Below are positions 12,350-51,288 of a stretch of 64,000 nt of DNA, piece after piece. The notes under the pieces were generated by a model, which had not been told where the DNA came from, ran no database searches, and worked only from the letters and a program-made list of their open reading frames with translations. The DNA comes from Longilinea sp. (lineage in GTDB: Bacteria; Chloroflexota; Anaerolineae; Anaerolineales; Anaerolineaceae), in NCBI GenBank assembly GCA_034429015.1, contig DAOUHA010000012.1:70615-134614 (forward strand), given 5' to 3'. Position numbers and translations under genes: made by a program. Position 1 is the first letter of the stretch. Each line of letters begins with the position of its first letter.

Positions 12350-12382
12350 TTATTTCCAGACACAAATTAAATTACGAAACAA

Positions 12383-13380: not shown

Positions 13381-13387
13381 AGACTGA

Positions 13388-13831: not shown

Positions 13832-13834
13832 TTT

Positions 13835-37386: not shown

Positions 37387-37415
37387 TTGACCGATTGAAC
37401 CCCCAAAGGTATAAT
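37387..37415 (+). promoter_or_regulatory. Sigma70-type promoter of the glycan locus
   Basis: TTGACC (37387-37392), a 17-nt spacer, then TATAAT (37410-37415), 25 nt upstream of ATG 37440. Confidence 0.6.
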
Positions 37416-37439
37416 TCAACGACTGAATATAGGATCTCC

Positions 37440-38901
<1,462 letters not shown>

Positions 38902-39747
38902 TTGAGAAACGCTGTCTCCGAACCCCGCACCATCATATTGCGCCCTTCCAGCGGTCTGGTTGCATTGGATTTCCGGGAGCTGTGGATTTACCGCGAGCTG
39001 GTGTACTTCCTCACCTGGCGCAGCCTGAAGGTGCGTTATAAGCAGACAATCCTGGGTGTATCCTGGGCAGTTTTGGAACCGTTTTTGACCATGGTGGTGT
39101 TCACCATATTCTTTGGCAACCTGGCAAAGGTCGGCTCGGATAATGTGCCCTACCCCATCTGGTCTTATGCTGGTTTACTGCCCTGGGGTTTGTTTTCCAA
39201 AGCCCTCAGCGATGCCAGCCGTTCATTGGTACAAAACAGCCACATGATCACCAAGATCTACTTCCCGCGCATCATTTTGCCGCTTTCATCCATCCTCGCC
39301 GGTCTGGTGGATTTTGCCATCGCCTTTGTGGTCCTGATCGGCATGATGTTGTTTTACAACACATATCCCACATCTGTAGCGTGGACTTTGCCATTATTCC
39401 TATTGCTGGCATTGATTACCGCTCTGGGTGTGGCACTCTGGCTTTCAGCATTAAATGTCAAGTACCGGGATGTTGGCTACGTGCTGCCCTTCCTGACCCA
39501 GTTCTGGCTCTTCATCACCCCGGTCGTTTATCCTTCCAGCCAGATACCCGAAAAATGGCGGTTGATTTACGGTCTCAATCCCATGACGGGTGTTGTGGAA
39601 GGTTTCCGTTGGGCTTTGCTGGGGATCCACCCGCAACCCACATTTTTCCCCATGCTGGCGGTTTCCACCGGCATGGCGTTCCTGGTCCTGCTCACTGGAA
39701 TTTTCTACTTCCGGCGCATGGAGCGGGGTTTCGCAGATGTGGTGTAA
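38902..39747 (+). CDS. wzm: ABC-2 type polysaccharide export permease (Wzm/TagG-like)
   Basis: 281 aa, six TM helices, with the N-terminal motif ELVYFLTWRSLKVRYKQTILGVSWAVLEP typical of Wzm/KpsM. Start is TTG and is uncertain. Confidence 0.85.
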   Translation: MRNAVSEPRTIILRPSSGLVALDFRELWIYRELVYFLTWRSLKVRYKQTILGVSWAVLEPFLTMVVFTIFFGNLAKVGSDNVPYPIWSYAGLLPWGLFSKALSDASRSLVQNSHMITKIYFPRIILPLSSILAGLVDFAIAFVVLIGMMLFYNTYPTSVAWTLPLFLLLALITALGVALWLSALNVKYRDVGYVLPFLTQFWLFITPVVYPSSQIPEKWRLIYGLNPMTGVVEGFRWALLGIHPQPTFFPMLAVSTGMAFLVLLTGIFYFRRMERGFADVV

Positions 39748-39751
39748 TTCC

Positions 39752-41017
39752 ATGAGTGATATCGCCATTCATGCTGAGAATATCGGAAAACGGTACCGCC
39801 TGGGAACAGCAGCCATTCATTACCCCACCCTGCGGGATGCCATCTCCGAGCGCATTCAAAAACTGCGCCGGATGGGCGCCCCCAGAGAGGAGGAAATTCT
39901 CTGGGCGTTGCGCAACCTCTCCTTTGATGTCCACCAGGGTCAGGTAATCGGGATTATCGGTCGCAACGGAGCCGGGAAAAGCACCCTGCTGAAAATTCTC
40001 AGCCGGGTGACTGAACCAACCGAGGGGACTGCTTTGATCCGCGGACGGGTTGGTTCCCTACTGGAGGTCGGCACAGGTTTTCATCCCGAACTGACCGGGC
40101 GTGAGAACATTTATCTCAACGGAGCCATCCTGGGTATGAAGCGGATGGAAATCGAAAGTAAATTTGATGAAATTGTCAGTTTTGCCGAAGTGGAGAAATT
40201 CATTGAAACCCCGGTAAAACGTTATTCCAGCGGGATGTACCTGCGGCTGGCGTTTGCAGTGGCGGCTCACCTGGAACCGGAAATTCTGATTGTGGATGAA
40301 GTGTTGGCTGTCGGCGATGCCGAGTTCCAGCGGAAATGCCTGGGGAAAATGAGTGATGTCGCCTCCCAGGGTCGCACGGTTTTATTTGTAAGCCATAACA
40401 TGTCAGCCATCCTGCGTCTTACCGAGGAAACTCTGGTCATTGACAAGGGCAGGCTGGCAATGCGGGCACCCACCCCCGAAGCGGTGGATTATTATCTTTC
40501 CAATGGTTATTCCCAGGAAGGCGAGCGTGTTTGGGAAGCGGATGAAATTCCGGCATCAGCCCACCCCTTCCGCCCTATTGCCCTCCGGGTTCGCAATTCC
40601 CGCGGTCTGGTGGTGGATTCAGTTCGCTCGGCGGAAGAATTTACCGTGGAAATGGAATATCAGTTGAAAGCCCCCATCACTGGTTTACGGGTGGGCTTAT
40701 ACCTGTCCAGCACGCGTGGTGAAATTGTATTTACTACATTCGATACTGATGAGCCGGAGGAATTTGAAGCAAACCCTGTCCGCGACGCGGGATGCTACAT
40801 CAGCCGCTGCGCAATCCCCGCTGATTTATTAAACGAGGGACGATTTGTGCTGGGGGTGAATGCCAGCACATTCCGAATAAAACGGTATTTTCAAGACGAA
40901 CAAGCGCTTACCTTTACCGTGGATGCAACCGGTGCCCCTGGGATGCAATGGCCTGAGCCGCGCCTGGGTGCAGTCCGCCCGCGCCTGGATTGGCAAATTG
41001 AAATGGTGAAATCATGA
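39752..41017 (+). CDS. wzt: Polysaccharide export ABC ATPase with a C-terminal glycan-binding-type domain (Wzt-like)
   Basis: Walker A GRNGAGKST, signature SSGMYLRLAFA and Walker B ILIVDE. About 175 extra C-terminal residues predicted to be beta-rich (Wzt_C-like). Start is ATG 39752, just after the wzm stop. Confidence 0.85.
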   Translation: MSDIAIHAENIGKRYRLGTAAIHYPTLRDAISERIQKLRRMGAPREEEILWALRNLSFDVHQGQVIGIIGRNGAGKSTLLKILSRVTEPTEGTALIRGRVGSLLEVGTGFHPELTGRENIYLNGAILGMKRMEIESKFDEIVSFAEVEKFIETPVKRYSSGMYLRLAFAVAAHLEPEILIVDEVLAVGDAEFQRKCLGKMSDVASQGRTVLFVSHNMSAILRLTEETLVIDKGRLAMRAPTPEAVDYYLSNGYSQEGERVWEADEIPASAHPFRPIALRVRNSRGLVVDSVRSAEEFTVEMEYQLKAPITGLRVGLYLSSTRGEIVFTTFDTDEPEEFEANPVRDAGCYISRCAIPADLLNEGRFVLGVNASTFRIKRYFQDEQALTFTVDATGAPGMQWPEPRLGAVRPRLDWQIEMVKS

Positions 41018-42621
41018 CAGCATCAGGAAAAGAAGTAATTAAAAATCTACTGGGGCAAATTCCATTTGCCGCTGAACTATACTATTTGGTAAGACAGAAT
41101 GGACATCCCCTGCAAACAAGGTTTACCCTCAAGGAACTTCAACAGTCGCTGCCCGGTCTGGTGGCGAAGGCTGAAGTGCTGAGAAAAGAATCCCCCAAGG
41201 GTAAAAAAGTATTTATTTTCGCAACATTGCATTATTGGATTGAACATGCCGCCGTGTTGGGCGTCGCACTCGCCGCCCAGGGTCATGATGTCATTTTTGG
41301 CTTCTTGCCCTATGCTGATTGGCAGAAAGAAATCAATTTGTTTGACCTGCGGCGTCAGAATTTATATGCCCGCCGCATCCTCAGCCCGGCTGAATCCATT
41401 ATGAAGGTGGTGTCGCTCTTCAATGCGCGCGCTCCCTACACCCCCCTGCCGGAAACCCTGGTGGAAGCGGTTCAAACCGTCACCAACTATGATGTCCAAT
41501 ACACCCTCCAGATTGAAGAAGTGGACACTGCCAGTGATATTTACAAACTGCGCAGCAATCGCAATAAGGATGCTGCCCAGACCATGCTGTCACTCCTGCG
41601 TGCCCACCACCCGGATGTGGTGATCGTGCCCAACGGCACCATCCAGGAGATGGGCATTGCCTATCGCGTGGCGCGTTCGTTAAATATTCCCACAATAACC
41701 TATGAATTCAGCGACCAACGTCAGCATATCTGGATTGCCCAAAACGATGAAATCATGCAGCAAAACACCGATGGAGTCTGGGCAACCCGCAAGGATGCGC
41801 CCCTGAAGGATTCCGAACTGGAGCGGCTGCGTTCGCTGATGGCTTCACGTCAACGCGCCACATTGTGGGAAAATTTTGCCCGCCGCTGGCAGGATACACC
41901 TGCCCAAGGAGGTTCACAGGCACGCGCTGCCCTGGGGCTGGATGCCCGCCCCATTGTATTGCTGGCTACCAATGTCCTCGGTGACAGTCTGACCCTGGGA
42001 CGCCAGGTATTCAGCAAAAGCATGGCGGAATGGATCAGCCGCACGGTGCAATATTTCACCGGTCGACCCGAATTGCAACTGGTCATCCGGGTCCACCCCG
42101 GTGAGGTGTTGATGCATGGTCAGTCGATGGTTTCAGTGGTGCGCAGTGTCCTGCCGCGTCTGCCGGAACATATCAAGCTGATCTGCCCGACAGACAAGGT
42201 TAACACCTATGATTTAATTGACGTGGCTGACCTGGGTCTGGTTTACACAACCACTGTGGGGTTGGAGATGGCGATGAATGGTCTGCCGGTCATCGTGGCT
42301 GGTCAAACGCATTACCGCGGCCGCGGCTTTACCCATGATCCCGACTCCTGGGTGAACTACTTTAAAATGTTGGGGGCATTCACCGAAAATCCATCGGAAT
42401 ATCACCTGAGCCGGTCTCAAGTTGAGAAAGCCTGGTCGTATGCCTACAGTTTCTTTTTTGAGTATCCCCTTCCCTTCCCATGGCATCTCGTCCGCCTGCC
42501 GGAAGATCTTCAGAACCATCCCATTGATGATGTTCTCAGCCCGGAAGGGTTGAAACAGTACGGTGACACCTTCCGCTACCTGGTTGGTGAACCCATTACA
42601 TGGAATAAATTTCATGACTGA
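41014..42621 (+). CDS. Putative GT-B-like capsule-biosynthesis protein (KpsC/KpsS-like ulosonic-acid transferase candidate)
   Basis: 535 aa. IRVHPGEV and VYTTTVGLEMAMNGLPVIVAGQTHYRGRGFT resemble the HP and C-terminal motifs I recall for the Capsule_synth (KpsC/KpsS) family. Not verifiable here. Confidence 0.35.
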   Translation: MTASGKEVIKNLLGQIPFAAELYYLVRQNGHPLQTRFTLKELQQSLPGLVAKAEVLRKESPKGKKVFIFATLHYWIEHAAVLGVALAAQGHDVIFGFLPYADWQKEINLFDLRRQNLYARRILSPAESIMKVVSLFNARAPYTPLPETLVEAVQTVTNYDVQYTLQIEEVDTASDIYKLRSNRNKDAAQTMLSLLRAHHPDVVIVPNGTIQEMGIAYRVARSLNIPTITYEFSDQRQHIWIAQNDEIMQQNTDGVWATRKDAPLKDSELERLRSLMASRQRATLWENFARRWQDTPAQGGSQARAALGLDARPIVLLATNVLGDSLTLGRQVFSKSMAEWISRTVQYFTGRPELQLVIRVHPGEVLMHGQSMVSVVRSVLPRLPEHIKLICPTDKVNTYDLIDVADLGLVYTTTVGLEMAMNGLPVIVAGQTHYRGRGFTHDPDSWVNYFKMLGAFTENPSEYHLSRSQVEKAWSYAYSFFFEYPLPFPWHLVRLPEDLQNHPIDDVLSPEGLKQYGDTFRYLVGEPITWNKFHD

Positions 42622-43450
42622 ACCTGACATCAAGCAGGAAGTCCGGCATTTTTATGACCGGGTCGGCTGGCAGACGGAGGCTGACGGCATGTACCAGAAT
42701 GCCCAGTATGAAGACCTGCGCCCGGTTTCGGCTGAATATATCCATCGCTGCCACCTGAGGGTAACCAAACACCTTAAATCGTGCGGGAAGTTCCTGCTGG
42801 ATGCCGGCTCCGGTCCGGTACAATATCCTGAATATCTGACCTACTCGGAAGGCTACCAGCGGCGCGTTTGTGCTGATATCTCTCCCGTTGCCCTCCAGGA
42901 AGCCCGCAAACGGCTGGGTGACCATGGATTCTATGTGGTCATGGATGTCGCCCACCTGCCCTTCAAGGATGATGCGTTTGACGGTGTGGTATCCCTGCAT
43001 ACCCTGCACCATCTGCCTGCTGCTGAGCAGATCCTGGCATACGAAGACATCCATCGGGTGATGGCGCCTGACAGCACAACCGTGGTTGTCAACGGCTGGA
43101 CGGATGCGCCCTTCATGCGGCGGATGGATCGGCTGGTCAGGTTAATGGAACGCTTCAACCGGAAGAAATCCCTGGCTGCCAGTCCGGCAAGCCAGGAGAA
43201 AAAAGAATCGCCCAGCGGTACTTTTGTTCAAAAAATAAATATTACCTGGCTCATCAATGAAGTTGCCAACCACATCCCGCTGGAAGTGTACGTATGGCGC
43301 AGCACCAGCGTGCGTTTCCTCAGGGCGGTCATACACCCATGGCTGGCAGGCAGGTTGTGGCTCAAGCTGCTGTATGCATTGGAGGAACGATATCCCCGCT
43401 GGTTTGGCGAAAATGGTCAATACCCGTTGGTGGTGATCAAGAAATCCTAA
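42614..43450 (+). CDS. Class I SAM-dependent methyltransferase
   Basis: LLDAGSGP motif I and DGVVSLHTLHH. ATG 42614 overlaps the preceding stop codon. Confidence 0.8.
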   Translation: MTEPDIKQEVRHFYDRVGWQTEADGMYQNAQYEDLRPVSAEYIHRCHLRVTKHLKSCGKFLLDAGSGPVQYPEYLTYSEGYQRRVCADISPVALQEARKRLGDHGFYVVMDVAHLPFKDDAFDGVVSLHTLHHLPAAEQILAYEDIHRVMAPDSTTVVVNGWTDAPFMRRMDRLVRLMERFNRKKSLAASPASQEKKESPSGTFVQKINITWLINEVANHIPLEVYVWRSTSVRFLRAVIHPWLAGRLWLKLLYALEERYPRWFGENGQYPLVVIKKS

Positions 43451-44469
43451 TGGAGAATGACATGGATTGGAAAAATCAGGTTGTTCTGGTAACCGGCGGT
43501 ACCGGTTCGTTCGGTAAAAAATTCATTGATATCATGCTGCGGGAATATCATCCCGCCAAATTAATTGTTTTCAGCCGTGATGAATTAAAGCAGCATGAGA
43601 TGCGCGCCAGCGGGTTTGATGCCCCCAACCTGCGCTATTTCATCGGAGATGTACGCGACCGTGACCGCCTGCAACGCGCCTTCAACGGCGTGAACATCGT
43701 GGTGCATGCCGCAGCTCTCAAGCAGGTGCCTGCCTGCGAATATAACCCGATGGAAGCCATCAAGACCAACATCCTGGGCAGCAGCAATGTGATTGATGCT
43801 GCCATTGACGCTGGCGTCAGCCGGGTACTGGCACTCAGCACGGATAAAGCCGTCAACCCGGTCAACCTGTATGGAGCCACCAAGCTGGCAGCCGAAAAAT
43901 TATTTGTGCAATCCAATGCCTATGCAGGCGGTACAGCCACCCGCTTTTCCTGCGTCCGATATGGAAACGTGGTGGGCAGCCGTGGTAGTGTGGTTCCGGT
44001 ATTTTTGAAACAACGCCAGAATGGGCGCGTCACCATCACTGATGAACGCATGACCCGCTTTTGGATTTCCCTGGAACAGGGCGTCCATTTTGTTATCCGC
44101 TGCATTGAACAGATGCAGGGCGGCGAAGTCTTTGTCCCCAAAATTCCATCCTGTACCCTTATGGACCTGGCATATGCCATCGCACCCGACGCAGAAATCG
44201 AAGTCATTGGCATCCGCCCCGGTGAGAAACTTCATGAAGTGCTGATCTCCGAAGACGAAGCCCGCACCACAGTGGAGTTGGATGATATGTTCGTGGTTGA
44301 ACCCGCGGAAGCGTTCTGGTTTGGCGGCAAATGGAAGGAACGCGGCAACCTTTTGCCGGATGATTTCCGTTATGCCAGCAACAACAACCCCGAGTGGTTA
44401 ACCGTCGAGCAAATCCAGCAGATGGTCGCCCCCATTGAAGCGGAGTATCTGCAGGACAAAATCGATTGA
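43450..44469 (+). CDS. pseB: UDP-N-acetylglucosamine 4,6-dehydratase (inverting), PseB/FlaA1-like
   Basis: Near-colinear with remembered H. pylori FlaA1: VTGGTGSFGK, SRDELKQHEM, FIGDVRDRDRL, HAAALKQVPACEYNPMEAIKTNILG, STDKAVNPVNLYGATKL, RYGNVVGSRGSVVPVF, MTRFWI, IRPGEKLHEV. The start could also be ATG 43462. Confidence 0.8.
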   Translation: MENDMDWKNQVVLVTGGTGSFGKKFIDIMLREYHPAKLIVFSRDELKQHEMRASGFDAPNLRYFIGDVRDRDRLQRAFNGVNIVVHAAALKQVPACEYNPMEAIKTNILGSSNVIDAAIDAGVSRVLALSTDKAVNPVNLYGATKLAAEKLFVQSNAYAGGTATRFSCVRYGNVVGSRGSVVPVFLKQRQNGRVTITDERMTRFWISLEQGVHFVIRCIEQMQGGEVFVPKIPSCTLMDLAYAIAPDAEIEVIGIRPGEKLHEVLISEDEARTTVELDDMFVVEPAEAFWFGGKWKERGNLLPDDFRYASNNNPEWLTVEQIQQMVAPIEAEYLQDKID

Positions 44470-44503
44470 ATAAATCAGCAGAGTAGACCGCACAAGGAGG
44501 AAG

Positions 44504-45451
44504 ATGACGCATATCCTCATCACCGGTGTGAGTGGTTTGCTGGGTTTGAACCTGGCACTGGATTGCTGTGAGTCATATCAGGTGACTGGTGTTGCAAATC
44601 ATCACAGGCTTCCGGGGGCATCGTTCCCTGTCATTCAAACCGACTTAAGCCAGCCGGGATCGGTCCAAAACCTGTTGGATGAAACCCTGCCTGACGTGCT
44701 GATCCACTGTGCTGCCCTCGCCAACCTGGAAGCCTGTGAAGCCAATCCGGAAACAGCGAAACATGTGAATGCCGTTTTACCGGGTGAATTTGCCCTGGAA
44801 ACCCACAACCGGGGAATCCGCATGGTGCACATTTCAACGGATGCCGTCTTTGACGGACAGATCCCCCTGCCGCAATCCCTTGCGCCAATCATCGGCGGAT
44901 ACCAGGAGGGGGATGCCCCCAATCCGCTCAGTGTTTACGCCCGAACCAAGCTTGATGGTGAGCTCGCAGTTTCATCAGCCAGCCCGGATGCCATTATTGC
45001 CCGTGTTAATTTCTTTGGCTGGAGCCTCTCAGGGCGCCGCAGTCTATCCGAGTTCTTTTTTAATAACCTCTCCACCGGAAACCAGGTGAAGGGCTTTACA
45101 GATGTATTTTTCTGCCCGCTTTTAGCCAATCACCTGGGTCGGATCCTGTTGAAAATGGTTGAAAAAGGTTTGACGGGTCTGTACCATGTAGTCAGCCCGG
45201 AAGCTGTCAGCAAGGATGAATTTGGCAGAAGGCTGGCACGCCGGTTCGGTTTGGACGAATCCCTCATCACTCCAACCTCCGTCACCCGGGGTGGGTTGAA
45301 AGCCGCACGTTCCCCAAATCTTGTGCTATCCACCCAAAAATTAACCGAAGCCCTGGGCGAACCCGCCCCGGATATTAATGCCGGGCTGGAAGAATATTAC
45401 AACCTGTGGAAACAGGGTTATCCCAACCGGCTTGTCAGGATGAATGGATAA
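44504..45451 (+). CDS. SDR-family sugar nucleotide 4-ketoreductase (RmlD substrate-binding family)
   Basis: ILITGVSGLLG, HCAALANLEACEANPE, STDAVFDG and YARTKLDGE (YxxxK). Confidence 0.75.
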   Translation: MTHILITGVSGLLGLNLALDCCESYQVTGVANHHRLPGASFPVIQTDLSQPGSVQNLLDETLPDVLIHCAALANLEACEANPETAKHVNAVLPGEFALETHNRGIRMVHISTDAVFDGQIPLPQSLAPIIGGYQEGDAPNPLSVYARTKLDGELAVSSASPDAIIARVNFFGWSLSGRRSLSEFFFNNLSTGNQVKGFTDVFFCPLLANHLGRILLKMVEKGLTGLYHVVSPEAVSKDEFGRRLARRFGLDESLITPTSVTRGGLKAARSPNLVLSTQKLTEALGEPAPDINAGLEEYYNLWKQGYPNRLVRMNG

Positions 45452-45485
45452 TAATCCCCTCTTTGTAAAGGTATAAAAGGAGTTC

Positions 45486-46556
45486 ATGATGGATATTCAA
45501 ATTGGTAAACATCTCCTTGGGGAAAAACACCCCACCTATTTTATTGCAGATATTGCAGCCAATCATGATGGCAGCCTGGAACGCGCCAGGATGCTCATCC
45601 GTTTGGCTGCTGAAGCTGGTGCAGATGCTGCAAAGTTCCAAAATTTCCGGGCTCCCAAAATCGTCTCGGATTATGGCTTCCGTACCATGGGAGGTCAACA
45701 ATCCCATCAGGCAAAGTGGAAGAAGTCCGTCTTTGAGGTTTATCAGGGGGCATCCATTCCCTTTGATTGGACACCCGAACTTAAAGCGGTTTGCGAAGAA
45801 GCCGGGATTGATTATTTTTCCTCGCCATATGATTTTGAAGCTGTGGATTACCTGGATTCATTTGTCCCTGCGCACAAAATTGGCTCCGGTGAAATCGACT
45901 GGCTGGAAGAATTGGAATATATTGCCCACAAGGGCAAACCAATTCTGCTTGCCACAGGAGCTGCCAGCATTGGGGAAGTCCAACAGGCGGTTCACACCAT
46001 CCTGGCAATCAATCCCCAGCTGGTGCTGATGCAGTGCAATACCAACTACACCGGAAGTGTTGAGAATTTCAATCATGTCCATCTGAATGTACTCAAATCC
46101 TACAAGCTGATGTTCCCCAACCTGGTACTTGGACTCTCCGACCACACCCCGGGGCATGCAGCAGTGCTTGGCGCTGTGGCATTGGGTGCCCGCTGCGTGG
46201 AAAAACATTTTACTGACGATCGAAACCGTGAGGGACCTGATCACGGATTTGCGATGGATCCCCGCGGCTGGCGGGAGATGGTGGAGCGCACCCGTGAGCT
46301 GGAACGTGCTCTTGGTTCAGCCGACAAGTTTGTAACCGAAAATGAACAACAGACTGTCATCATCCAGCGCCGCTGCCTGCGCGCTGCCCGGGATATCCAG
46401 CCAGGTGAGGTGTTGACCCGGGAAATGATCGATGTGCTGCGACCCGCAACACCCGGAGCAATCCTGCCGCCCCACATCCCGGAAGTCATTGGGTACAAAG
46501 CCGCCCATTCCATCCCGGCTGGCAAAGAGATCCGGTGGACAGATCTTGCTAAATGA
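45486..46556 (+). CDS. NeuB/PseI/SpsE-family nonulosonic acid synthase
   Basis: FIADIAANHDGSLERARMLIRLAAEAGADAAKFQ (compare SpsE/NeuB AEAGxNHxG...AGADAVKFQ), KIGSGE, and a C-terminal SAF domain (PGEVLTREMIDVLRP). Confidence 0.85.
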   Translation: MMDIQIGKHLLGEKHPTYFIADIAANHDGSLERARMLIRLAAEAGADAAKFQNFRAPKIVSDYGFRTMGGQQSHQAKWKKSVFEVYQGASIPFDWTPELKAVCEEAGIDYFSSPYDFEAVDYLDSFVPAHKIGSGEIDWLEELEYIAHKGKPILLATGAASIGEVQQAVHTILAINPQLVLMQCNTNYTGSVENFNHVHLNVLKSYKLMFPNLVLGLSDHTPGHAAVLGAVALGARCVEKHFTDDRNREGPDHGFAMDPRGWREMVERTRELERALGSADKFVTENEQQTVIIQRRCLRAARDIQPGEVLTREMIDVLRPATPGAILPPHIPEVIGYKAAHSIPAGKEIRWTDLAK

Positions 46557-47695
46557 GAATTCTTTATTTCACACAAGATTACACCCCCCACGATTACCGA
46601 TTTTTAAGCTCGCTGGCTAAAACCGGACATGAGATATATTACCTGCGGCTCGAACGGCGGAATGCCCAATCGGAAGACCGTCCTTTGCCATCACAGGTCC
46701 ATCAAATCCAATGGAGGGGCGGCAAAAAACCCTTTCAATGGCGGGATGCCCCCTTCCTGTTGATAGACCTGCGGCGCGTCCTGCACTGGATCCAGCCGGA
46801 TATACTGCACGCCGGTCCGGTTCAATCCGTGGCATTCCTGGCTGCGCTGAGCGGTTTTCAGCCCCTGGTGACCATGTCCTGGGGATCGGATATGCTGGTA
46901 GATGCCGATCGGATGCAGAAGCGAACCCATTTCACCCTCAAACGGACGTCAATCTTCCTGGGTGACTGTCTGGCTGTGAGGAACAAGGCAAAAGAATACG
47001 GTTTCCCGGTGGAGCGCACGGTATTGTTCCCATGGGGTGTGAACCTGGAACAGTTCTCACCCTCATCCAATCCAGGGCGCCGGGCTGAAATGAGCTGGGG
47101 GGAGGACACCTTTGTTCTTCTTTCCGTCCGCTCCTGGGAGACCCTCTACGGTGTGGATGTGCTGGTGCGCGGTTTTGCCCGTGCCGCTGAAATCGCCCCA
47201 CAGCTCAGGCTCTTCCTGCTGGCGGATGGCTCGCAGTCCGGCAAGTTGCGCCAAATCCTTGCCCAACATGACCTGCTCGACCGGGTCAGTTTTCCCGGAC
47301 GCGTTGGTCAGGCTGATCTTCCGTCTTTCTACCAGGCATCCGACCTGTACATCAGTGCCTCCCACAGTGATGGGTCATCCGTATCGCTGATGGAGGCGCT
47401 TGCCTGCGGTCTGCCCGCCCTGGTTTCAGATATTCCCGGCAACCGGGAATGGATTACTCCCGGCGGGGAAGGCTGGCTTTTTCCCGACGGAGATGACTGC
47501 GCCTTGGCAGACTGCATTTTGGAAGCTCTCCGGCAGCGTGAGCGGCTTGATGTCATGGGTAAAACTGCCCGTGCTCTCGCTGAACAGCGGGCTGATTGGA
47601 AAATTAATTTTCAAACCATGCTCAACGGCTATGCGCAGGCTTTGGAGCTTCACCAGATCAAACCACCCGTGAAAAGGGGCAACTTTATTTTCTGA
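46553..47695 (+). CDS. Glycosyltransferase family 4 (GT-B, retaining)
   Basis: SHSDGSSVSLMEALACGLPALVSDIPGNREWI (EX7E region). ATGA overlap with the preceding gene. Confidence 0.85.
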   Translation: MRILYFTQDYTPHDYRFLSSLAKTGHEIYYLRLERRNAQSEDRPLPSQVHQIQWRGGKKPFQWRDAPFLLIDLRRVLHWIQPDILHAGPVQSVAFLAALSGFQPLVTMSWGSDMLVDADRMQKRTHFTLKRTSIFLGDCLAVRNKAKEYGFPVERTVLFPWGVNLEQFSPSSNPGRRAEMSWGEDTFVLLSVRSWETLYGVDVLVRGFARAAEIAPQLRLFLLADGSQSGKLRQILAQHDLLDRVSFPGRVGQADLPSFYQASDLYISASHSDGSSVSLMEALACGLPALVSDIPGNREWITPGGEGWLFPDGDDCALADCILEALRQRERLDVMGKTARALAEQRADWKINFQTMLNGYAQALELHQIKPPVKRGNFIF

Positions 47696-47707
47696 TACAA
47701 TGCAACC

Positions 47708-48484
47708 ATGATGACTCAACCCCGTATTGTTGCCATTATCCAGGCTCGAATGAGCTCAACCCGTCTGCCCGGGAAAGTCCTCAAAGATATCGCCGGTCAA
47801 CCCATGCTGGTATGGGTGGTGGAACGCACCCGCCTTGCTAAAACAGTGGACGAAGTTGTTGTGGCTACCACCGTCGAGCCTTCCGATGACCCCATTGTTG
47901 AATTATGCAATGAACGGGGTTTTCCTTGTCAGCGTGGCAGCCTGGCGGATGTGCTGGATCGCTATTACCAGGCAGCCCGGCAATTCCAGGCGGATGTCAT
48001 TGTCCGCGTTACTGCGGATTGTCCGTTAATCGATCCGGGTGAAATTGACCACGTTGTGAACGAGTTCATCATAAACCAGGTGGATTTTGCCGCCAACCGT
48101 TTTCCCCCGCCATTGGGGCGCACTTATCCCATTGGATTGGATGTGGAGGTGTGTTCGTTTAACGCATTAAAACGCGCCTGGCAGGAAGCCACCCATGGAT
48201 TTGAGCGGGAACACGTGATGCCATATCTATACACGGTTCCCGGCAGGTATAAAGTCCTGCGGGTTGATCACACCCCCGATTATGGCGACCTGCGCTGGAC
48301 GGTGGACACACCCGCTGATCTGGAGCTTGTCCGCACCATCGCGGATCGTTTTCACGGCAGGCAGGATTTCAGCTGGTACGAAGTACTGGCGCTGTTTGAA
48401 CAGGAACCGGAACTGGCAAAGATCAACACCGGTGTTGAACAAAAAATATTAACCGATACTGAACAACAGGATAATCATTTATGA
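47708..48484 (+). CDS. SpsF-type cytidylyltransferase (CTP_transf_3 family; CMP-ulosonic acid synthetase candidate)
   Basis: IVAIIQARMSSTRLPGKVLKDIAGQPML matches the SpsF/PseF-like N-terminus (IQARMGSTRLPGKVL). Confidence 0.8.
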   Translation: MMTQPRIVAIIQARMSSTRLPGKVLKDIAGQPMLVWVVERTRLAKTVDEVVVATTVEPSDDPIVELCNERGFPCQRGSLADVLDRYYQAARQFQADVIVRVTADCPLIDPGEIDHVVNEFIINQVDFAANRFPPPLGRTYPIGLDVEVCSFNALKRAWQEATHGFEREHVMPYLYTVPGRYKVLRVDHTPDYGDLRWTVDTPADLELVRTIADRFHGRQDFSWYEVLALFEQEPELAKINTGVEQKILTDTEQQDNHL

Positions 48485-49389
48485 CCAACCCGCAATCGAC
48501 CGATGCAGCCCGATCCATCCGCTCCTGTCCATTATGCGGCAGCGGACGGAACCGCTTTTTTGAGCACCTGGAACACCCCACAATGACCATGGATTACCGA
48601 ATTTGTCAGGATTGTGGATTCGTCTTTCAATCCTACATCTGGCAGGATTCCGAGTTGGTGGAATATTATTCCTCCCAGTATCGCGTTCAAATGGAACAGA
48701 GTGATTCCCCCACTGAACGGGTTCGGGCAATTGAAAATGCACGCGCCCGCCTGTTGACTCGGAAACTGATAGCCAGCGGGGTTGTTCCCCACCGTCACCT
48801 GGATATCGGCTGTTCCACCGGGGCATTCCTGTTGGAATGCAATCGAAAGTTTGGCTGCCTGGGCACCGGTGTGGAACCCGGCAACAGCTACCGCAGTTTT
48901 GCCCAGGAACGCGGGTTGGAAGTTTTACCATCCCTGGAGGAACTGGTCGTCGCCCCGGAGGACCGGTATGACCTGGTCAGTTTGATTCACGTAATGGAAC
49001 ACCTGCCCGACCCTGTTGGCACCCTGACTGACCTGCGCGAAACGACTCTTGCCCCGGATGGTTTGCTGCTGGTGGAAGTACCCAATCTATATGCTCATGA
49101 CAGCCTGGAACCGGCACATATCTCCGCCTTCAGCCCTCACACGCTTGAACAGGCGTTGAAGAAAGCCGGTTATTATATTCATCAGTTATGGCTGCATGGT
49201 CAACCCCGCTCGAATGTCCTGCAACTGTATATCACTGCCCTGGCGAAACCATCCCGTAAAACCATTACCCATATCCTGCCGGAGGAACTGGTCGTCTTTC
49301 GCCGCAAGATCAGCCTGATTCAACGCAGGGTGCTGCAAAAGCTGATGCCCGGGCAGACCTGGCTTCCTTATCCTCCTTTGGAGGAATGA
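48481..49389 (+). CDS. Class I SAM-dependent methyltransferase with an N-terminal Cys4 zinc-ribbon
   Basis: CPLCGS...CQDCGF followed by LDIGCSTGAF motif I. ATGA overlap with the preceding gene. Confidence 0.8.
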   Translation: MTNPQSTDAARSIRSCPLCGSGRNRFFEHLEHPTMTMDYRICQDCGFVFQSYIWQDSELVEYYSSQYRVQMEQSDSPTERVRAIENARARLLTRKLIASGVVPHRHLDIGCSTGAFLLECNRKFGCLGTGVEPGNSYRSFAQERGLEVLPSLEELVVAPEDRYDLVSLIHVMEHLPDPVGTLTDLRETTLAPDGLLLVEVPNLYAHDSLEPAHISAFSPHTLEQALKKAGYYIHQLWLHGQPRSNVLQLYITALAKPSRKTITHILPEELVVFRRKISLIQRRVLQKLMPGQTWLPYPPLEE

Positions 49390-49393
49390 CTTT

Positions 49394-50323
49394 ATGCCAT
49401 TTTTAACCATTTTTACCACCCCAAAACCTTTTACTGATCCCCATATCAACATCATTCAACGTAATGCCATCCAATCCTGGGTGGAACTGGGTGACGAGGT
49501 GGAAGTATTGATCATCGGCGAAGAAGAAGGCTCCGCCAGCGCTGCCCGGGATTTAGGTGTAAAAGTCCTGTCAGATGTACGCCGTAATTCTCAAGGAACA
49601 CCGATGATCCCATCCATCTTCGAGCTGGCACGCCAAAACAATGGCAGCCCCTTCATGGCATACCTGAACACCGACATCCTTGTTCTACCGGATTTTTTAC
49701 AAGCTGCAAAAAATGTATCCAGCCAATTGGATCGATTCCTCATGGTCGGACAACGTTGGGATCTGGATGTGCGCACTCCGCTTCATTTCACTCCAGGCTG
49801 GCAAACCCGCTTGCAGGAGTGGACATTCCGTGAAGGGAAAATGCATCCCCCCGCCGGGAGTGACTATTTCATCTACCCCCGGGAATGTTTCACCTCCATC
49901 CCGGAACTGGCTGTGGGTCGTGCCGGCTGGGATAACTGGATGCTTTATGAAGCCCGCCAGCGCGGCTGGAAGCTGGTTGATTCTTCCATGGACATTTTGT
50001 TGATTCATCAGAACCATGATTACCGTCACCTGCCAGGTGGTCAGCCGCATTACAAGCTGCCCGAAACTTTCGAAAATGTACGCCAAATGGGCGGGCGGCA
50101 AACTATCTTTACATTGTATGATTGCAACCGTCGCCTGACGGAAGGCAGGATTCAAAAATTTCCTTGTTCATGGCGGAAATTCTGGCGGGAGGTGGAAATT
50201 TTCCCCCAGGTGAAACTGCATTCCCGCTTTTTGGGAAGGATCAGTTATGCTGTTTTTCATCCCATCAGAGCATTTGGAAAAGCACGCACCCGCTTCCATG
50301 GCTGGCGGGTGCATAATAAATAA
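49394..50323 (+). CDS. Conserved hypothetical protein, possible GT-A-like glycosyltransferase
   Basis: 309 aa. N-terminal FLTIFTTPKPF beta-strand-like start and a YLNTDILVLPDF (DxD-like) segment. Context is the glycan locus. No family recognised. Confidence 0.3.
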   Translation: MPFLTIFTTPKPFTDPHINIIQRNAIQSWVELGDEVEVLIIGEEEGSASAARDLGVKVLSDVRRNSQGTPMIPSIFELARQNNGSPFMAYLNTDILVLPDFLQAAKNVSSQLDRFLMVGQRWDLDVRTPLHFTPGWQTRLQEWTFREGKMHPPAGSDYFIYPRECFTSIPELAVGRAGWDNWMLYEARQRGWKLVDSSMDILLIHQNHDYRHLPGGQPHYKLPETFENVRQMGGRQTIFTLYDCNRRLTEGRIQKFPCSWRKFWREVEIFPQVKLHSRFLGRISYAVFHPIRAFGKARTRFHGWRVHNK

Positions 50324-50352
50324 TTAAACCATCAATTATTCAGGAGCCAATC

Positions 50353-51288
50353 ATGCGTGTTGGTCAAAATCCCGCCAAATATCTTAAAAAAGTTGCCTTA
50401 CCGGCTCCGGTTACTGTAGCTGTATTGAATTATATTCCGTTTATTGGGGGCTTTTATCAGCAGGTCCCGGATGTATTGAGGACCTGCATTAACAGCATTC
50501 GTGAAGCAACCAAACAGCCGTTTGACCTGATGATCTTTGACAATGGAAGCTGCCCGGAAGTCCGGCAGATGTTGATGGAGGATTTTGACCAGGGGATTAT
50601 TCAATATTTAATCCTTTCAGATAAAAACCTGGGCAAGGGTGGTGCCTGGAATATCATCTTTGGCGGAGCGCCCGGTGAAATCATTGCCTACACGGATAAT
50701 GATGTGCTCTATTCCAAGGGCTGGCTTCGACGTTCACTTGAATTGCTGGATACCTACCCCAATGTGGGCATGGTCACCGCCCGTCCCATCCGCACCGATC
50801 CCTCCTGGAACACACACACCGTGGAATGGGCTGAAGCCAATCCGGATGTGACCATGGAGCACGGTCAACTGGTGCCCCGGGAAATATTATTGGAATTTGA
50901 CCGCAGCCTGGGCAAGGAAGCAGGCTTTGAGGATTTTTACAACTCCACCAGCGATACCCGCCTCGCATTCCGGGGAATCCAGGCATATGTGGGGGCTTCC
51001 CACTGGCAGTTTATTGCACGGAAGGATATCTTGACTCAATTCCTTCCCTTCCAGATGGACCGCCCCATGCAGCAGGTCAGCCGGTTGGATTTGCGTATGA
51101 ATGATGCAGGATTTTTGCGTTTGATGGTGCCGGATCCCCTGGTCGCCAACATGAGCAATACCCTGCCCGGAACAACCAGTCCGACCATCTACAAATCAGG
51201 ACGGCACAACGCCCTGCTTGAATTCCCCCCGGTAAAAAAATTATTGATGGGATTGTATAATCGGATATTCCATTGGTATTTTCAATAG
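50353..51288 (+). CDS. Glycosyltransferase family 2
   Basis: VTVAVLNY, FDNGS and YTDNDVLY (DxD) motifs. Confidence 0.75.
   Translation: MRVGQNPAKYLKKVALPAPVTVAVLNYIPFIGGFYQQVPDVLRTCINSIREATKQPFDLMIFDNGSCPEVRQMLMEDFDQGIIQYLILSDKNLGKGGAWNIIFGGAPGEIIAYTDNDVLYSKGWLRRSLELLDTYPNVGMVTARPIRTDPSWNTHTVEWAEANPDVTMEHGQLVPREILLEFDRSLGKEAGFEDFYNSTSDTRLAFRGIQAYVGASHWQFIARKDILTQFLPFQMDRPMQQVSRLDLRMNDAGFLRLMVPDPLVANMSNTLPGTTSPTIYKSGRHNALLEFPPVKKLLMGLYNRIFHWYFQ

What the first reader, a model, noticed from the sequence alone, without database searches (positions are those of the whole stretch)
43450..48484. Non-canonical nonulosonic-acid module: PseB-like dehydratase + RmlD-like reductase + NeuB-like synthase + SpsF-like cytidylyltransferase
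The canonical pseudaminic and legionaminic acid routes need a 4-aminotransferase (PseC/LegC), an N-acetyltransferase (PseH/LegH) and a UDP/GDP-sugar hydrolase (PseG/LegG) between the dehydratase and the synthase. None of these three is present.

- The gene directly after the PseB-like dehydratase is instead an RmlD-family 4-ketoreductase.
- A GT4 gene sits between the synthase and the cytidylyltransferase.
- If the module is self-contained, the 4-keto intermediate would be reduced, not aminated. That gives a 6-deoxy-HexNAc, and after condensation with PEP a 7-hydroxy, 9-deoxy, 5-N-acetyl nonulosonic acid. I am not aware that such a sugar has been described from a defined pathway.
- Alternatively, the missing enzymes lie elsewhere in the genome, or the dehydratase/reductase pair makes a separate 6-deoxy-HexNAc.
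Basis: inference. Interest (0 to 1): 0.6.

Follow-up and report, generated by a model that had tools for sequence, protein, structure and literature searches.

The report
Aminotransferase-free nonulosonic acid sugar cassette
This Anaerolineae bacterium carries a conserved gene set that resembles the pathway for the sialic-acid-like sugar pseudaminic acid, but a reductase replaces the amino-adding steps, so it probably makes a rare one-nitrogen nine-carbon acid sugar whose biosynthetic genes have not been described.

Summary
**Observation: confirmed.**
- Window 43450-48484 encodes five genes on the + strand:
  - an orthodox PseB
  - an RmlD-like SDR reductase
  - a NeuB+SAF synthase that passes neither the NeuB nor the PseI cut-off
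  - a GT4
  - an SpsF-type cytidylyltransferase
- The 99.5%-complete genome has no PseC, PseH, PseG, NeuC or GlcNAc 2-epimerase. It does have a separate true RmlD.

**Conservation.**
- The synthase ortholog occurs in 72 of 121 genomes of the order. Gene order is nearly fixed.
- PseG occurs only in cassette-free families.
- The core PseB, RmlD-like reductase, NeuB-like synthase and cytidylyltransferase recurs in Lysinibacillus, Paenibacillus, Lachnospiraceae, Poseidonibacter, Sulfurimonas and Neisseriaceae. It sits beside flagellin and/or Maf genes in the first four.
- In 80 metagenome contigs, 45 of 54 assessable synthase genes have the reductase within 2 kb upstream.
- The synthase lies in a clade (99% support) that excludes NeuB, PseI and SpsE.

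**Most likely product (about 0.55):** a CMP-activated 5-acetamido-3,5,9-trideoxy (7-hydroxy) nonulosonic acid made via UDP-6-deoxy-L-AltNAc.

This sugar type is already known. The Fusobacterium nucleatum ATCC 25586 O-antigen holds it together with L-6dAltNAc. I found no published pathway.

**Open gaps.** The UDP-releasing enzyme is unidentified, and nothing here is biochemical.

The scan had already noted this cassette in at least 45 other genomes.

The parts
37395..37925 (+). MarR/winged-helix regulator; first gene of the conserved locus (context)
   Evidence: Pfam HTH_24 and MarR. Ortholog at the same position in most loci of the order.
37918..38901 (+). Fcl-like SDR (GDP-L-fucose synthase family), probably makes a second 6-deoxyhexose donor for the same glycan
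   Evidence: NF047922 scores 306 bits, below the 500 cut-off. A gmd gene lies on the same contig at C12:29007-30134. Position conserved.
38902..39747 (+). Wzm, ABC-2 permease of the glycan exporter
   Evidence: PF01061 8.1e-21. Conserved synteny.
39752..41017 (+). Wzt ATPase with a C-terminal carbohydrate-binding domain
   Evidence: PF00005 plus PF14524 Wzt_C. TagH/Wzt-type NCBIfam hits.
41014..42621 (+). KpsC/KpsS-like (Capsule_synth) protein; candidate transferase for the CMP-activated ulosonic acid
   Evidence: PF05159 6.8e-06. A profile of 23 orthologs hits KpsC 6MGD best, at E 0.025, and the RVHPGE 'HP' motif is invariant. A paralog lies directly after the genome's second NeuB at C29:215542-217227.
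42563..43450 (+). SAM methyltransferase MT1 (true start probably near 42620)
   Evidence: PF08241 1e-16. Present in most loci of the order.
43450..44469 (+). PseB, the inverting UDP-GlcNAc 4,6-dehydratase/5-epimerase; first step
   Evidence: TIGR03589 scores 500.1 against a 407.75 cut-off. STDK/YGATK motif present. Orthologs are 335 aa, which supports the ATG at 43450.
44504..45451 (+). RmlD-like SDR, inferred C-4 ketoreductase acting on the PseB product
   Evidence: PF04321 1.2e-50; TIGR01214 scores 164, below 224. Catalytic motifs intact. It is the reciprocal best match of the reductases in the Lysinibacillus and Poseidonibacter cassettes: 78 and 98 bits, against 32 and 23 for the true RmlD.
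45486..46556 (+). NeuB-family synthase with SAF domain, member of a distinct clade; inferred PEP condensation with a 6-deoxy-HexNAc
   Evidence: PF03102 plus PF08666; below the NeuB and PseI cut-offs. Clade split has 99% SH-aLRT support. Clade motifs SHQxxW and QCNTNYT. 58-77% identical across the order.
46553..47695 (+). GT4 glycosyltransferase, translationally coupled to the synthase. It is either a polymer-building transferase or, speculatively, the missing UDP-sugar hydrolase.
   Evidence: PF00534 2.2e-28. DX7E motif present. It follows the synthase in 36 of 40 loci of the order and in 19 of 52 metagenome loci. No specific relative in the flagellar cassettes.
47708..48484 (+). SpsF-type cytidylyltransferase, inferred CMP-nonulosonate synthetase
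   Evidence: PF02348 3.5e-35; PseF scores only 31.8 against 205.7. 42% identical to the cytidylyltransferase of the Lysinibacillus cassette.
48481..49389 (+). Methyltransferase MT2 (Methyltransf_23 with a zinc ribbon); optional tailoring enzyme
   Evidence: PF13489 1.3e-21. Present in only about a quarter of the loci of the order. Weak match to the methyltransferase of the Lysinibacillus cassette.
49394..50323 (+). Conserved 309-aa protein, probably a divergent GT-A glycosyltransferase
   Evidence: No family hit for the protein alone. 3-6 of 26 orthologs give weak GT2 or NTP_transf_3 hits. No PDB relative.
50353..51288 (+). GT2 glycosyltransferase; last conserved gene of the locus
   Evidence: PF00535 3.1e-16. 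Conserved position.

Best explanation
The four core genes form a reductive, aminotransferase-free route to a CMP-activated nonulosonic acid.

1. PseB converts UDP-GlcNAc to UDP-2-acetamido-2,6-dideoxy-beta-L-arabino-hex-4-ulose. This follows from firm family membership.
2. The RmlD-like SDR reduces the 4-keto group with NAD(P)H, giving UDP-6-deoxy-L-AltNAc or its C-4 epimer. This is inferred.
3. UDP is removed by an enzyme not yet identified. This is a gap.
4. The NeuB-like synthase condenses the free 6-deoxy-HexNAc with PEP. The product is a 5-acetamido-3,5,9-trideoxy-non-2-ulosonic acid, with 7-OH in place of 7-NHAc. This is inferred.
5. The SpsF-type enzyme makes the CMP-sugar. This is inferred from family.
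6. The KpsC/KpsS-like protein probably transfers the sugar into a glycan. GT4, a GT-A-like protein and a GT2 build that glycan, methyltransferases decorate it, and Wzm/Wzt export it.

The UDP-6-deoxy-HexNAc may also serve directly as a donor.
For: - **Gene identities and intact catalytic motifs**.
- **No alternative upstream enzymes in the genome.** There is no PseC, PseH, PseG, NeuC or GlcNAc 2-epimerase.
- **A true RmlD exists elsewhere**.
- **Phyletic pattern.**
  - The synthase ortholog is in 72 of 121 genomes of the order, all-or-none by family, with the other cassette genes beside it in 36 of 40 fetched loci.
  - PseG passes its cut-off in 7 of 121 genomes, all in cassette-free families.
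  - DegT is in 120 of 121 genomes whether or not the cassette is present.
- **The same core occurs in other phyla.**
  - Flagellin and/or Maf genes flank it in Lysinibacillus, Paenibacillus, Lachnospiraceae and Poseidonibacter; the Sulfurimonas and Neisseriaceae loci show neither.
  - Neither a DegT aminotransferase nor PseG lies in the Lysinibacillus, Paenibacillus or Lachnospiraceae loci; the two Campylobacterota loci do carry a DegT.
  - No PseG is found in four complete carrier genomes.
- **Adjacency.** In metagenomes, 45 of 54 assessable clade members have the reductase within 2 kb upstream. DegT occurs in 7 of 80 loci and a PseG-like gene in 1 of 80.
- **Phylogeny.** The synthase clade is separate from NeuB, PseI and SpsE with 99% support.
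- **Chemical precedent.** L-6dAltNAc and a 5-N-acyl-3,5,9-trideoxy nonulosonic acid occur together in one natural polymer.
- **Matching tailoring gene.** The Poseidonibacter cassette carries a WbuX-type amidotransferase (304.6 bits). That fits the 5-acetimidoyl form of this sugar.
Against: - No enzyme that releases UDP is identifiable. No such candidate is shared by all versions of the cassette.
- The reductase is only 26-28% identical between Anaerolineae and the flagellar cassettes, so orthology rests on reciprocal best hits and position.
- The genome keeps one DegT aminotransferase of unknown role.
- Some relatives carry an oxidoreductase, an aminotransferase and a cytidylyltransferase inside the cassette (L100, L116). 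The product may therefore differ between lineages.
- The flagellar versions keep a PseH-like GNAT, whose role without an amine is unexplained.
- I could not reach the F. nucleatum ATCC 25586 genome. The Fusobacteriaceae genomes I could search show only DegT-associated NeuB genes.
Confidence: 0.55

Rival explanations
1. There are two unrelated products. PseB and the RmlD-like reductase only make UDP-6-deoxy-L-HexNAc as a glycosyl donor, for example for the GT4. The NeuB-like synthase and the cytidylyltransferase make an ulosonic acid from a different aldose of unknown origin.
For: - The locus has four putative glycosyltransferases that need donors.
- 6-deoxy-L-AltNAc is itself a polymer constituent in F. 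nucleatum.
- PseB-like dehydratase plus RmlD-like reductase pairs are the established logic for UDP-L-RhaNAc and UDP-L-QuiNAc (WbvB/WbvR; my own knowledge).
- The missing hydrolase is not a problem for the donor half of this reading.
Against: - The genome has no source of a free aldose substrate for the synthase: no NeuC and no GlcNAc 2-epimerase.
- The reductase-synthase pair is the most constant adjacency of the clade, often overlapping, in 45 of 54 metagenome loci.
- That adjacency also holds in loci next to flagellin and/or Maf genes in Lysinibacillus, Paenibacillus and Lachnospiraceae.
- Such flagellar systems are known, in the cases studied, to add nonulosonic acids rather than 6-deoxy-HexNAc (my own knowledge).
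Confidence: 0.2
2. The pathway is ordinary pseudaminic or legionaminic acid synthesis. Its aminotransferase, acetyltransferase and hydrolase are encoded elsewhere, for example by the lone DegT on contig C5 and a stray GNAT on contig C9.
For: - One DegT gene scores 270.5 bits against PseC and 264.9 against LegC.
- A GNAT at C9:11588-12130 scores 65.8 bits against PseH and 69 bits against the Lysinibacillus cassette GNAT.
Against: - All three scores are far below the curated cut-offs.
- There is no PseG at all in this genome, in any of the 72 cassette-bearing genomes of the order, or in four complete carrier genomes.
- DegT is present in 120 of 121 genomes of the order, including families without the cassette.
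- The synthase is outside the PseI and SpsE (Leg) clades.
- A dedicated reductase would have no role in this reading.
Confidence: 0.04
3. The NeuB-like enzyme makes a different keto-deoxy acid, such as a Kdn-like or octulosonic acid, or a C-4/C-7 variant. The reductase would then act at another stage, for example on the acid itself.
For: - The synthase clade has a unique, longer S2-H4 loop. PMC7371886 assigns C4-C6 substrate specificity to that region.
- The cytidylyltransferase resembles KdsB in its N-terminal half.
- The putative transferase belongs to the beta-Kdo transferase family.
Against: - The SAF domain Arg equivalent to NmNeuB R314 is conserved. In NmNeuB that residue contacts the N-acetyl group (my own knowledge; alignment).
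- The metal and PEP ligands are also conserved.
- An orthodox PseB is nearly always present in the loci long enough to show it.
- RmlD-family enzymes act on nucleotide-linked 4-keto sugars (established knowledge).
Confidence: 0.1

Closest known systems
CMP-pseudaminic acid pathway (PseB, PseC, PseH, PseG, PseI, PseF) of Helicobacter pylori and Campylobacter jejuni
   Same: - The first enzyme is the same: a true PseB equivalog.
- The overall logic is the same: UDP-GlcNAc to a 6-deoxy-L-hexose, then PEP condensation by a NeuB-family enzyme, then CMP activation.
   Different: - PseC, PseH and PseG are absent, and an RmlD-like reductase follows PseB.
- The synthase lies outside the PseI clade. It has Gly where PseI has Phe129.
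- The cytidylyltransferase is SpsF-type, not PseF.
- The expected product has one nitrogen and a 7-hydroxyl.
[quoted passage not shown] 2017, doi 10.1016/j.carres.2017.01.002, cited in PMC7371886 and PMC13014188)
   Same: - They are exactly the two sugars the cassette's logic predicts: the reduced PseB product and its PEP condensation product.
- A WbuX-type amidotransferase in the Poseidonibacter cassette fits the 5-acetimidoyl form.
   Different: - This is a chemical structure only. I found no genes linked to it.
- The tentative L-glycero-L-gluco configuration is, by my reading of the stereodescriptors, the C-4 epimer of the Pse configuration.
- The organism and the polymer type (LPS) differ.
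Bacillus subtilis sps legionaminic acid pathway (SpsM, SpsC, SpsD, SpsG, SpsE, SpsF; PMC7439481)
   Same: - SpsE (1VLI) is the closest solved relative of the synthase, at 173.9 bits.
- The cytidylyltransferase is of the SpsF type.
- It starts from UDP-GlcNAc with a PseB/CapE-like dehydratase.
   Different: - The sps route has an aminotransferase (SpsC), an acetyltransferase (SpsD) and SpsG.
- SpsE falls on the other side of the 99%-supported split.
UDP-L-RhaNAc/UDP-L-QuiNAc route of Vibrio cholerae O37 (WbvB, WbvR, WbvD) and the related FnlA/B/C route (from my own knowledge)
   Same: A UDP-GlcNAc 4,6-dehydratase is followed by an RmlD-like C-4 reductase.
   Different: - The dehydratase here is PseB-type (5-epimerase only), not FnlA/WbvB-type. 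TIGR04130 scores 250.8 against 730.
- No cluster-linked 2-epimerase is present.
- A NeuB-type synthase and a cytidylyltransferase are fixed partners.
KpsC/KpsS and WbbB beta-Kdo transferases (Capsule_synth family)
   Same: - The 535-aa protein hits PF05159, and its ortholog profile hits KpsC 6MGD.
- It keeps the HP motif.
- It sits in an ABC-transporter-dependent glycan locus.
   Different: - The similarity is very weak (E 0.025 for the profile).
- The donor would be a CMP-nonulosonate, not CMP-Kdo.
- It is untested.

Membership tests
Canonical CMP-pseudaminic acid pathway | PseB, inverting UDP-GlcNAc 4,6-dehydratase | tested here: met
   TIGR03589 scores 500.1 bits against a 407.75 cut-off. 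Catalytic D-K...Y-x3-K present.
Canonical CMP-pseudaminic acid pathway | PseC, 4-aminotransferase | tested here: not met
   The best genome hit scores 268.6-270.5 bits against a 423.5 cut-off. It is on another contig, in an unrelated neighbourhood.
Canonical CMP-pseudaminic acid pathway | PseH, N-acetyltransferase | tested here: not met
   The best genome hit scores 65.8 bits against a 93.1 cut-off and is not in the locus.
Canonical CMP-pseudaminic acid pathway | PseG, UDP-sugar hydrolase | tested here: not met
   No match at E<=0.001 in a 99.5%-complete genome. 0 of 72 cassette-bearing genomes of the order pass the cut-off.
Canonical CMP-pseudaminic acid pathway | PseI-clade synthase | tested here: not met
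   TIGR03586 scores 251.8 against 340.25. PseI (8H2C) and the PseB/DegT-context homologs lie across a 99%-supported split.
Canonical CMP-pseudaminic acid pathway | PseF cytidylyltransferase | tested here: not met
   TIGR03584 scores 31.8 against 205.7. The enzyme is SpsF/6OEW-like.
CMP-Neu5Ac (sialic acid) pathway | NeuC hydrolysing 2-epimerase, or another source of ManNAc | tested here: not met
   The only Epimerase_2 gene is WecB (486 bits). NeuC scores 68 against 235.9. PF07221 is absent.
CMP-Neu5Ac (sialic acid) pathway | NeuB equivalog | tested here: not met
   TIGR03569 scores 271 against 399.65. NmNeuB lies in the other major clade.
NeuB superfamily (PEP-aldose condensing synthases) | NeuB TIM-barrel domain plus SAF domain, with metal and PEP ligands | tested here: met
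   PF03102 8.2e-72 and PF08666 2.1e-10. KFQ, KIGSGE, GLSDHT, EKHFT and LRP motifs are conserved.
dTDP-L-rhamnose pathway RmlD | Equivalog-level match and rmlABC partners | tested here: not met
   TIGR01214 scores 164.3 against 224.05. The genome's true RmlD (286 bits) lies with RmlB and RmlC on contig C4.
UDP-L-FucNAc / L-RhaNAc routes (FnlA/WbvB type) | FnlA-type trifunctional dehydratase | tested here: not met
   TIGR04130 scores 250.8 against 730. The catalytic Tyr is of the PseB type, not the Met of CapE/FnlA.
Reductive 'trideoxy' nonulosonic acid route (proposed; no curated family) | PseB + RmlD-like reductase + clade-specific NeuB + SpsF-type cytidylyltransferase, kept together without an aminotransferase | tested here: met
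   - no DegT aminotransferase or PseG in these loci.
- the core is kept, but a DegT lies in the same locus.
- 45 of 54 assessable metagenome loci have the reductase within 2 kb upstream.
Reductive 'trideoxy' nonulosonic acid route (proposed; no curated family) | Product is a 7-hydroxy-9-deoxy-5-N-acyl nonulosonic acid | not testable with these tools
   This needs enzymology or glycan analysis. The only support here is the chemical precedent.

The most novel reading that the evidence does not exclude
This is a fourth general route to bacterial nonulosonic acids, beside the Neu, Leg and Pse routes.

- It is reductive and amine-free, and yields 7-hydroxy-9-deoxy ('fusaminic-type') acids.
- It has its own synthase clade.
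- It has a UDP-release step that does not use PseG or NeuC. That step may be done by recruited glycosyltransferase-fold proteins, namely the GT4 here and a short GT2 in other lineages.
- It is used both for a core cell-envelope glycan of Anaerolineales and, on the evidence of flanking flagellin/Maf genes, for flagellin glycosylation in Bacillota and Campylobacterota.
Probability: 0.45. Interest if true: 0.75.

Novelty: new variant of a known kind. Interest (0 to 1): 0.6.

Why it matters
- **A gap in a well-studied field.** Nonulosonic acids cap the surfaces of many bacteria and decide recognition by phages, lectins and immune receptors. Only the Neu, Leg and Pse-type routes are defined genetically. 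The single reported trideoxy (7-hydroxy) acid has no known genes.
- **A testable gene set.** If this cassette makes that sugar class, the question of how it is made becomes directly testable. Cultured organisms are available (Lysinibacillus sphaericus, Paenibacillus lutimineralis, Poseidonibacter lekithochrous, Leptolinea). Only four or five small soluble enzymes are involved.
- **The sugar may be common.** It would then be a core envelope component of Anaerolineales, which are dominant filamentous bacteria of anaerobic digesters and sludge. It would also be a flagellin modification in several phyla.
- **Annotation.** Genome annotation now labels the synthase only 'N-acetylneuraminate synthase family protein', and surveys that infer Pse from PseB would miscall these loci.
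- **Enzymes as tools.** They could give chemoenzymatic access to 7-OH analogues of pseudaminic acid.

Tried and rejected
1. **Genetic link to F. nucleatum.**
   - I reached Fusobacterium genomes through a 16S probe pattern.
   - The species representative, strain SB042, has no NeuB.
   - In 81 Fusobacteriaceae genomes the NeuB homologs are 30-36% identical and sit beside DegT genes with no reductase.
   - The one 55%-identical hit (G279 contig C208, 3 kb) carries PseB-reductase-synthase-GNAT. An identical protein is named Acetoanaerobium, and its nearest relatives are Sulfurimonas and Poseidonibacter. It is probably a mis-binned contig.
   - ATCC 25586 itself could not be reached.
2. **GT4 as a shared hydrolase.** It has no specific similarity to the GT-B protein of the Lysinibacillus island, and it is absent from the other flagellar cassettes.
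3. **The 309-aa unknown as a hidden PseG.** It looks like a divergent GT-A protein instead.
4. **Unbiased clustering of all neighbours in 90 loci.** No family other than the four core genes is universal. The gene after the synthase is GT4 in 19 loci and GNAT in 9 of the 52 assessable loci. A short GT2 family turns up in 13 loci, in most of them right after the synthase.
5. **The 274-Da flagellin sugar of Shewanella oneidensis (PMC3765264).** C11H18N2O6 is isobaric with a 5-acetimidoyl trideoxy acid. However, the authors read it as mono-N-acetyl Pse, and Shewanella has PseB/PseC. It is not evidence.
6. **Papers.** PMC8208679 (synthase phylogeny) and the SugarBase preprint did not mention this route. 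Five further searches found no described pathway.
8. **Structure prediction.** Not used. The deep alignments came from loci fetched with the fetch from genomes, which the tool's stated input rule does not list. Fold alone would not separate a hydrolase from a transferase.

Full report
**What is in the sequence**

The window is contig C12:70615-134614 of a 2.84-Mb, 30-contig genome that is 99.5% complete. Names of near-identical proteins place it in the Anaerolineae, near Bellilinea, Leptolinea and Thermanaerothrix.

The reported stretch lies inside a 14-kb run of + strand genes, 37395-51288. In order these are:
- a MarR-type regulator
- an Fcl-like SDR
- Wzm
- Wzt with a Wzt_C domain
- a 535-aa KpsC/KpsS-like protein
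- a methyltransferase
- PseB (43450-44469)
- an RmlD-like SDR (44504-45451)
- a NeuB+SAF synthase (45486-46556)
- a GT4 (46553-47695)
- an SpsF-type cytidylyltransferase (47708-48484)
- a second methyltransferase
- a conserved 309-aa protein
- a GT2

Family scores and motifs for the five genes of the finding:
- **PseB** is an equivalog-level match, 500.1 bits against a 407.75 cut-off. It has the PseB-type Asp-Lys...Tyr-x3-Lys motif.
- **The reductase** keeps the GxxGxxG, STD and YxxxK motifs but scores below the RmlD cut-off, 164 against 224.
- **The synthase** scores below both the NeuB cut-off (271 against 400) and the PseI cut-off (252 against 340).

Gene spacing suggests one transcription unit:
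- The synthase stop overlaps the GT4 start.
- The cytidylyltransferase stop overlaps the next start.
- The other gaps are 4-34 nt.

**Are the 'missing' enzymes elsewhere?**

In this genome:
- PseG has no match at all.
- The best PseC and LegC scores, 270 and 265 bits against cut-offs of 423 and 420, belong to a lone DegT gene on contig C5. It sits beside a bPH-domain gene and a HAD gene.
- The best PseH score is 65.8 against 93.1, from an isolated GNAT.
- The single Epimerase_2 gene is non-hydrolysing WecB, next to a UDP-ManNAc dehydrogenase.
- There is no GlcNAc 2-epimerase.
- The RmlD-like gene is not the rhamnose enzyme. A true RmlD (286 bits) sits with RmlB and RmlC on contig C4.

Across 121 genomes sampled evenly from the same order:
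- The synthase ortholog (58-77% identity) is present in 72. The pattern is all-or-none by family.
- DegT is present in 120, including the families without the cassette. One cassette genome has none.
- PseG passes its cut-off in 7 genomes, all in families that lack the cassette. None of the 72 cassette genomes has it.

The reading that the missing enzymes lie elsewhere is therefore very unlikely for this lineage.

**Conservation and reach of the cassette**

I fetched 40 loci from the order.
- 36 carry PseB, the reductase and the synthase, with GT4 directly after the synthase, or after MT1 in L100.
- Most show the full order from the regulator to the GT2. The same holds in Leptolinea sp. HRD-7 and in digester MAGs.
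- Two lineages (L100, L116) have a GFO/IDH/MocA oxidoreductase, the cytidylyltransferase and a DegT gene inserted next to the reductase.
- One family has the synthase in other surroundings.

Outside the Chloroflexota the same core recurs.

| Organism | Gene order |
|---|---|
| Lysinibacillus | flagellin, Maf, DUF8042, PseB, cytidylyltransferase, reductase, synthase, GNAT, methyltransferase |
| Paenibacillus lutimineralis | flagellin, DUF8042, Maf, PseB, SDR, reductase, synthase, GNAT, aldo-keto reductase, SDR, cytidylyltransferase |
| Lachnospiraceae MAG | flagellin, Maf, PseB, reductase, synthase, GNAT, cytidylyltransferase |
| Neisseriaceae MAG | PseB, then a restriction-modification insert, then reductase, synthase, GNAT, cytidylyltransferase |
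| Poseidonibacter lekithochrous | PseB, reductase, synthase, then tailoring genes including a WbuX-type amidotransferase (304.6 bits); Maf at the locus end |
| Sulfurimonas sp. | PseB, reductase, synthase, GNAT, then tailoring genes; no flagellin or Maf in the stretch read |

Further points on these carriers:
- The complete genomes of four carriers have no PseG.
- The cytidylyltransferases of this window and of Lysinibacillus are 42% identical.
- The flagellar-cassette reductases hit this window's reductase far better than the genome's true RmlD: 78 and 98 bits against 32 and 23.

In 80 metagenome contigs that carry a synthase of this clade:
- 54 have enough upstream sequence to judge. In 45 of these an RmlD-like gene lies within 2 kb upstream, and in 37 it is directly adjacent.
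- DegT occurs in 7 of the 80 loci.
- A PseG-like gene occurs in 1, the most divergent member.

**Placing the synthase**

I built a maximum-likelihood tree of 121 NeuB-family proteins. A split with 99% SH-aLRT support divides it.
- One side is a 53-row clade. It holds all 16 sequences whose gene was seen next to the reductase or whose close relatives' genes were.
- The other side holds NmNeuB (1XUU), C. jejuni PseI (8H2C), B. subtilis SpsE (1VLI) and the Fusobacterial homologs that sit beside PseB and DegT.

The RmlD-associated members also differ in sequence motifs.
- They share a longer S2-H4 loop (GF...SHQxxW.KS). PMC7371886 ties C4-C6 substrate specificity to this region.
- They share a QCNTNYT motif.
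- They have Gly where PseI has Phe129.

**What it most likely makes**

- PseB gives UDP-4-keto-6-deoxy-L-AltNAc (established for the family).
- An RmlD-type SDR placed directly after it should reduce C-4, giving UDP-6-deoxy-L-AltNAc or the L-ido epimer.
- Freed from UDP and condensed with PEP, this gives a 5-acetamido-3,5,9-trideoxy-non-2-ulosonic acid.

It is described. The O-antigen of F. nucleatum ATCC 25586 is [->4-beta-Non5Am-4-alpha-L-6dAltNAc3PCho-3-beta-D-QuiNAc-]. [quoted passage not shown] The predicted precursor and the predicted product occur together in one natural polymer. That is good chemical support for the logic. The amidotransferase in the Poseidonibacter cassette fits the acetimidoyl form. 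I found no paper that assigns genes to this sugar.

**What is not explained**

- **No UDP-releasing enzyme is identified.**
  - The gene right after the synthase varies. Of 52 assessable metagenome loci it is a GT4 in 19 and a PseH-like GNAT in 9.
  - A short GT2 of about 215 aa turns up in 13 loci, in most of them right after the synthase.
  - Sometimes the cytidylyltransferase follows directly.
  - GT4 and GT2 proteins, and PseH-type acetyltransferases, all bind UDP-sugars. PseG and NeuC are themselves glycosyltransferase-fold hydrolases (my own knowledge).
  - It is therefore a fair but untested idea that the GT4 here is the hydrolase.
  - Equally, GT4 may be an ordinary polymer-building transferase that uses UDP-6-deoxy-HexNAc.
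- **The GNAT has no explained role** in the flagellar cassettes, where no amine is made.
- **The product may vary between lineages.** Recurrent tailoring sets suggest so:
  - PIG-L deacetylase with formyltransferase
  - WbuX amidotransferase
  - methyltransferases
  - aldo-keto reductase with a class-III aminotransferase; in L136 the aminotransferase is fused to the cytidylyltransferase
  - GFO oxidoreductase with DegT
- **The F. nucleatum link is chemical only.** The strain's genome was out of reach, and the Fusobacteriaceae genomes I could search hold only DegT-associated NeuB genes.
- **No expression data** could be obtained.

**The consumer of the sugar**

- The 535-aa protein hits Capsule_synth.
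- A profile of its orthologs finds KpsC (6MGD) as the only PDB match, at E 0.025. The match covers the region just downstream of the invariant RVHPGE motif.
- A paralog lies immediately after the genome's second, SAF-less NeuB on contig C29.

Two synthases, each followed by or near such a protein, fit a role as ulosonic acid transferases. This is inference.

**Verdict**

- The finding is real.
- It is conserved and widespread, and it is not any curated pathway.
- My best reading, at about 0.55, is a reductive, amine-free route to a 7-hydroxy-9-deoxy nonulosonic acid.
- It is a new variant of a known kind of pathway. It makes a sugar type reported once, and one step is missing.
- Other agents of this scan reached the same reading on at least 45 other genomes. 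Those notes are not independent evidence.
  - the mutual exclusion with PseG across the order
  - the counts of reductase adjacency in metagenomes
  - the flagellar-island versions in cultured Bacillota and Campylobacterota
  - the alternative 'fifth genes' after the synthase

Noticed in passing
own genome, contig C29:207700-224000 (L005): There is a second nonulosonic-acid-like locus.
- It has a SAF-less NeuB (290 aa), followed by a 561-aa paralog of the KpsC/KpsS-like protein.
- It has two CTP_transf_3 genes, one of 412 aa. A 436-aa relative in L103 carries a HAD-like tail.
- It also holds a GFO/IDH/MocA oxidoreductase, SDRs, a 2-hydroxyacid dehydrogenase, an MptE/Maf-like protein, GT2s and a PMT-like protein.
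- No NeuC is present.
- In a digester MAG (L040) this second module lies directly downstream of the first and does include an Epimerase_2 gene.
   Followed up: partly
L100 (G167) and L116 (G154), loci of the same order: A GFO/IDH/MocA oxidoreductase (UDP-GlcNAc 3-dehydrogenase-like), the cytidylyltransferase and a DegT aminotransferase are inserted beside the reductase and synthase. The product in these lineages may carry an extra amino group.
   Followed up: partly
metagenome loci L136, L143, L144, L147, L155, L168, L170, L184, L192, L202 and others: A short GT2-family protein of about 215 aa follows the clade's synthase directly, often with overlapping codons. It takes the position held by GT4 in Anaerolineales and by a GNAT in the flagellar cassettes. 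It is a possible UDP-sugar hydrolase candidate.
   Followed up: partly
metagenome loci L158, L160, L180, L183, L187, L194, L196: A PIG-L-type de-N-acetylase and a formyltransferase travel together just downstream of the synthase, after the GNAT in L158, L180, L183 and L196. This suggests that the single 5-N-acetyl group is remodelled to N-formyl.
   Followed up: no
L136:7702-9747 and L080 (Sulfurimonas) 11590-15277: An aldo-keto reductase, a cytidylyltransferase and a class-III aminotransferase recur together. In L136 the last two are fused into one 681-aa protein. This hints at tailoring at the level of the free acid or the CMP-sugar.
   Followed up: no
window 37918-38901 and own genome C12:29007-30134: The first biosynthetic gene of the locus is Fcl-like (GDP-L-fucose synthase family, below cut-off). 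Its likely partner gmd lies about 80 kb away on the same contig, next to wecB and wecC.
   Followed up: no
own genome C4:42413-44299 and C5:44650-45846: A large PglF/WbpM-like membrane dehydratase (628 aa) and the genome's only DegT aminotransferase may together make a 4-amino-6-deoxy-HexNAc. That would explain why DegT is near-universal in the order, independently of the cassette.
   Followed up: no
G279 contig C208 (L078): A 3-kb contig in a Fusobacteriaceae genome bin carries PseB-reductase-synthase-GNAT. An identical protein is named Acetoanaerobium, and its relatives are Campylobacterota. The contig is probably mis-binned.
   Followed up: partly
L123 (Neisseriaceae MAG) 6740-7120: A short DegT-like fragment (80 bits) lies uncalled just upstream of the reductase, after a restriction-modification insertion. 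It may be a remnant of an aminotransferase.
   Followed up: no
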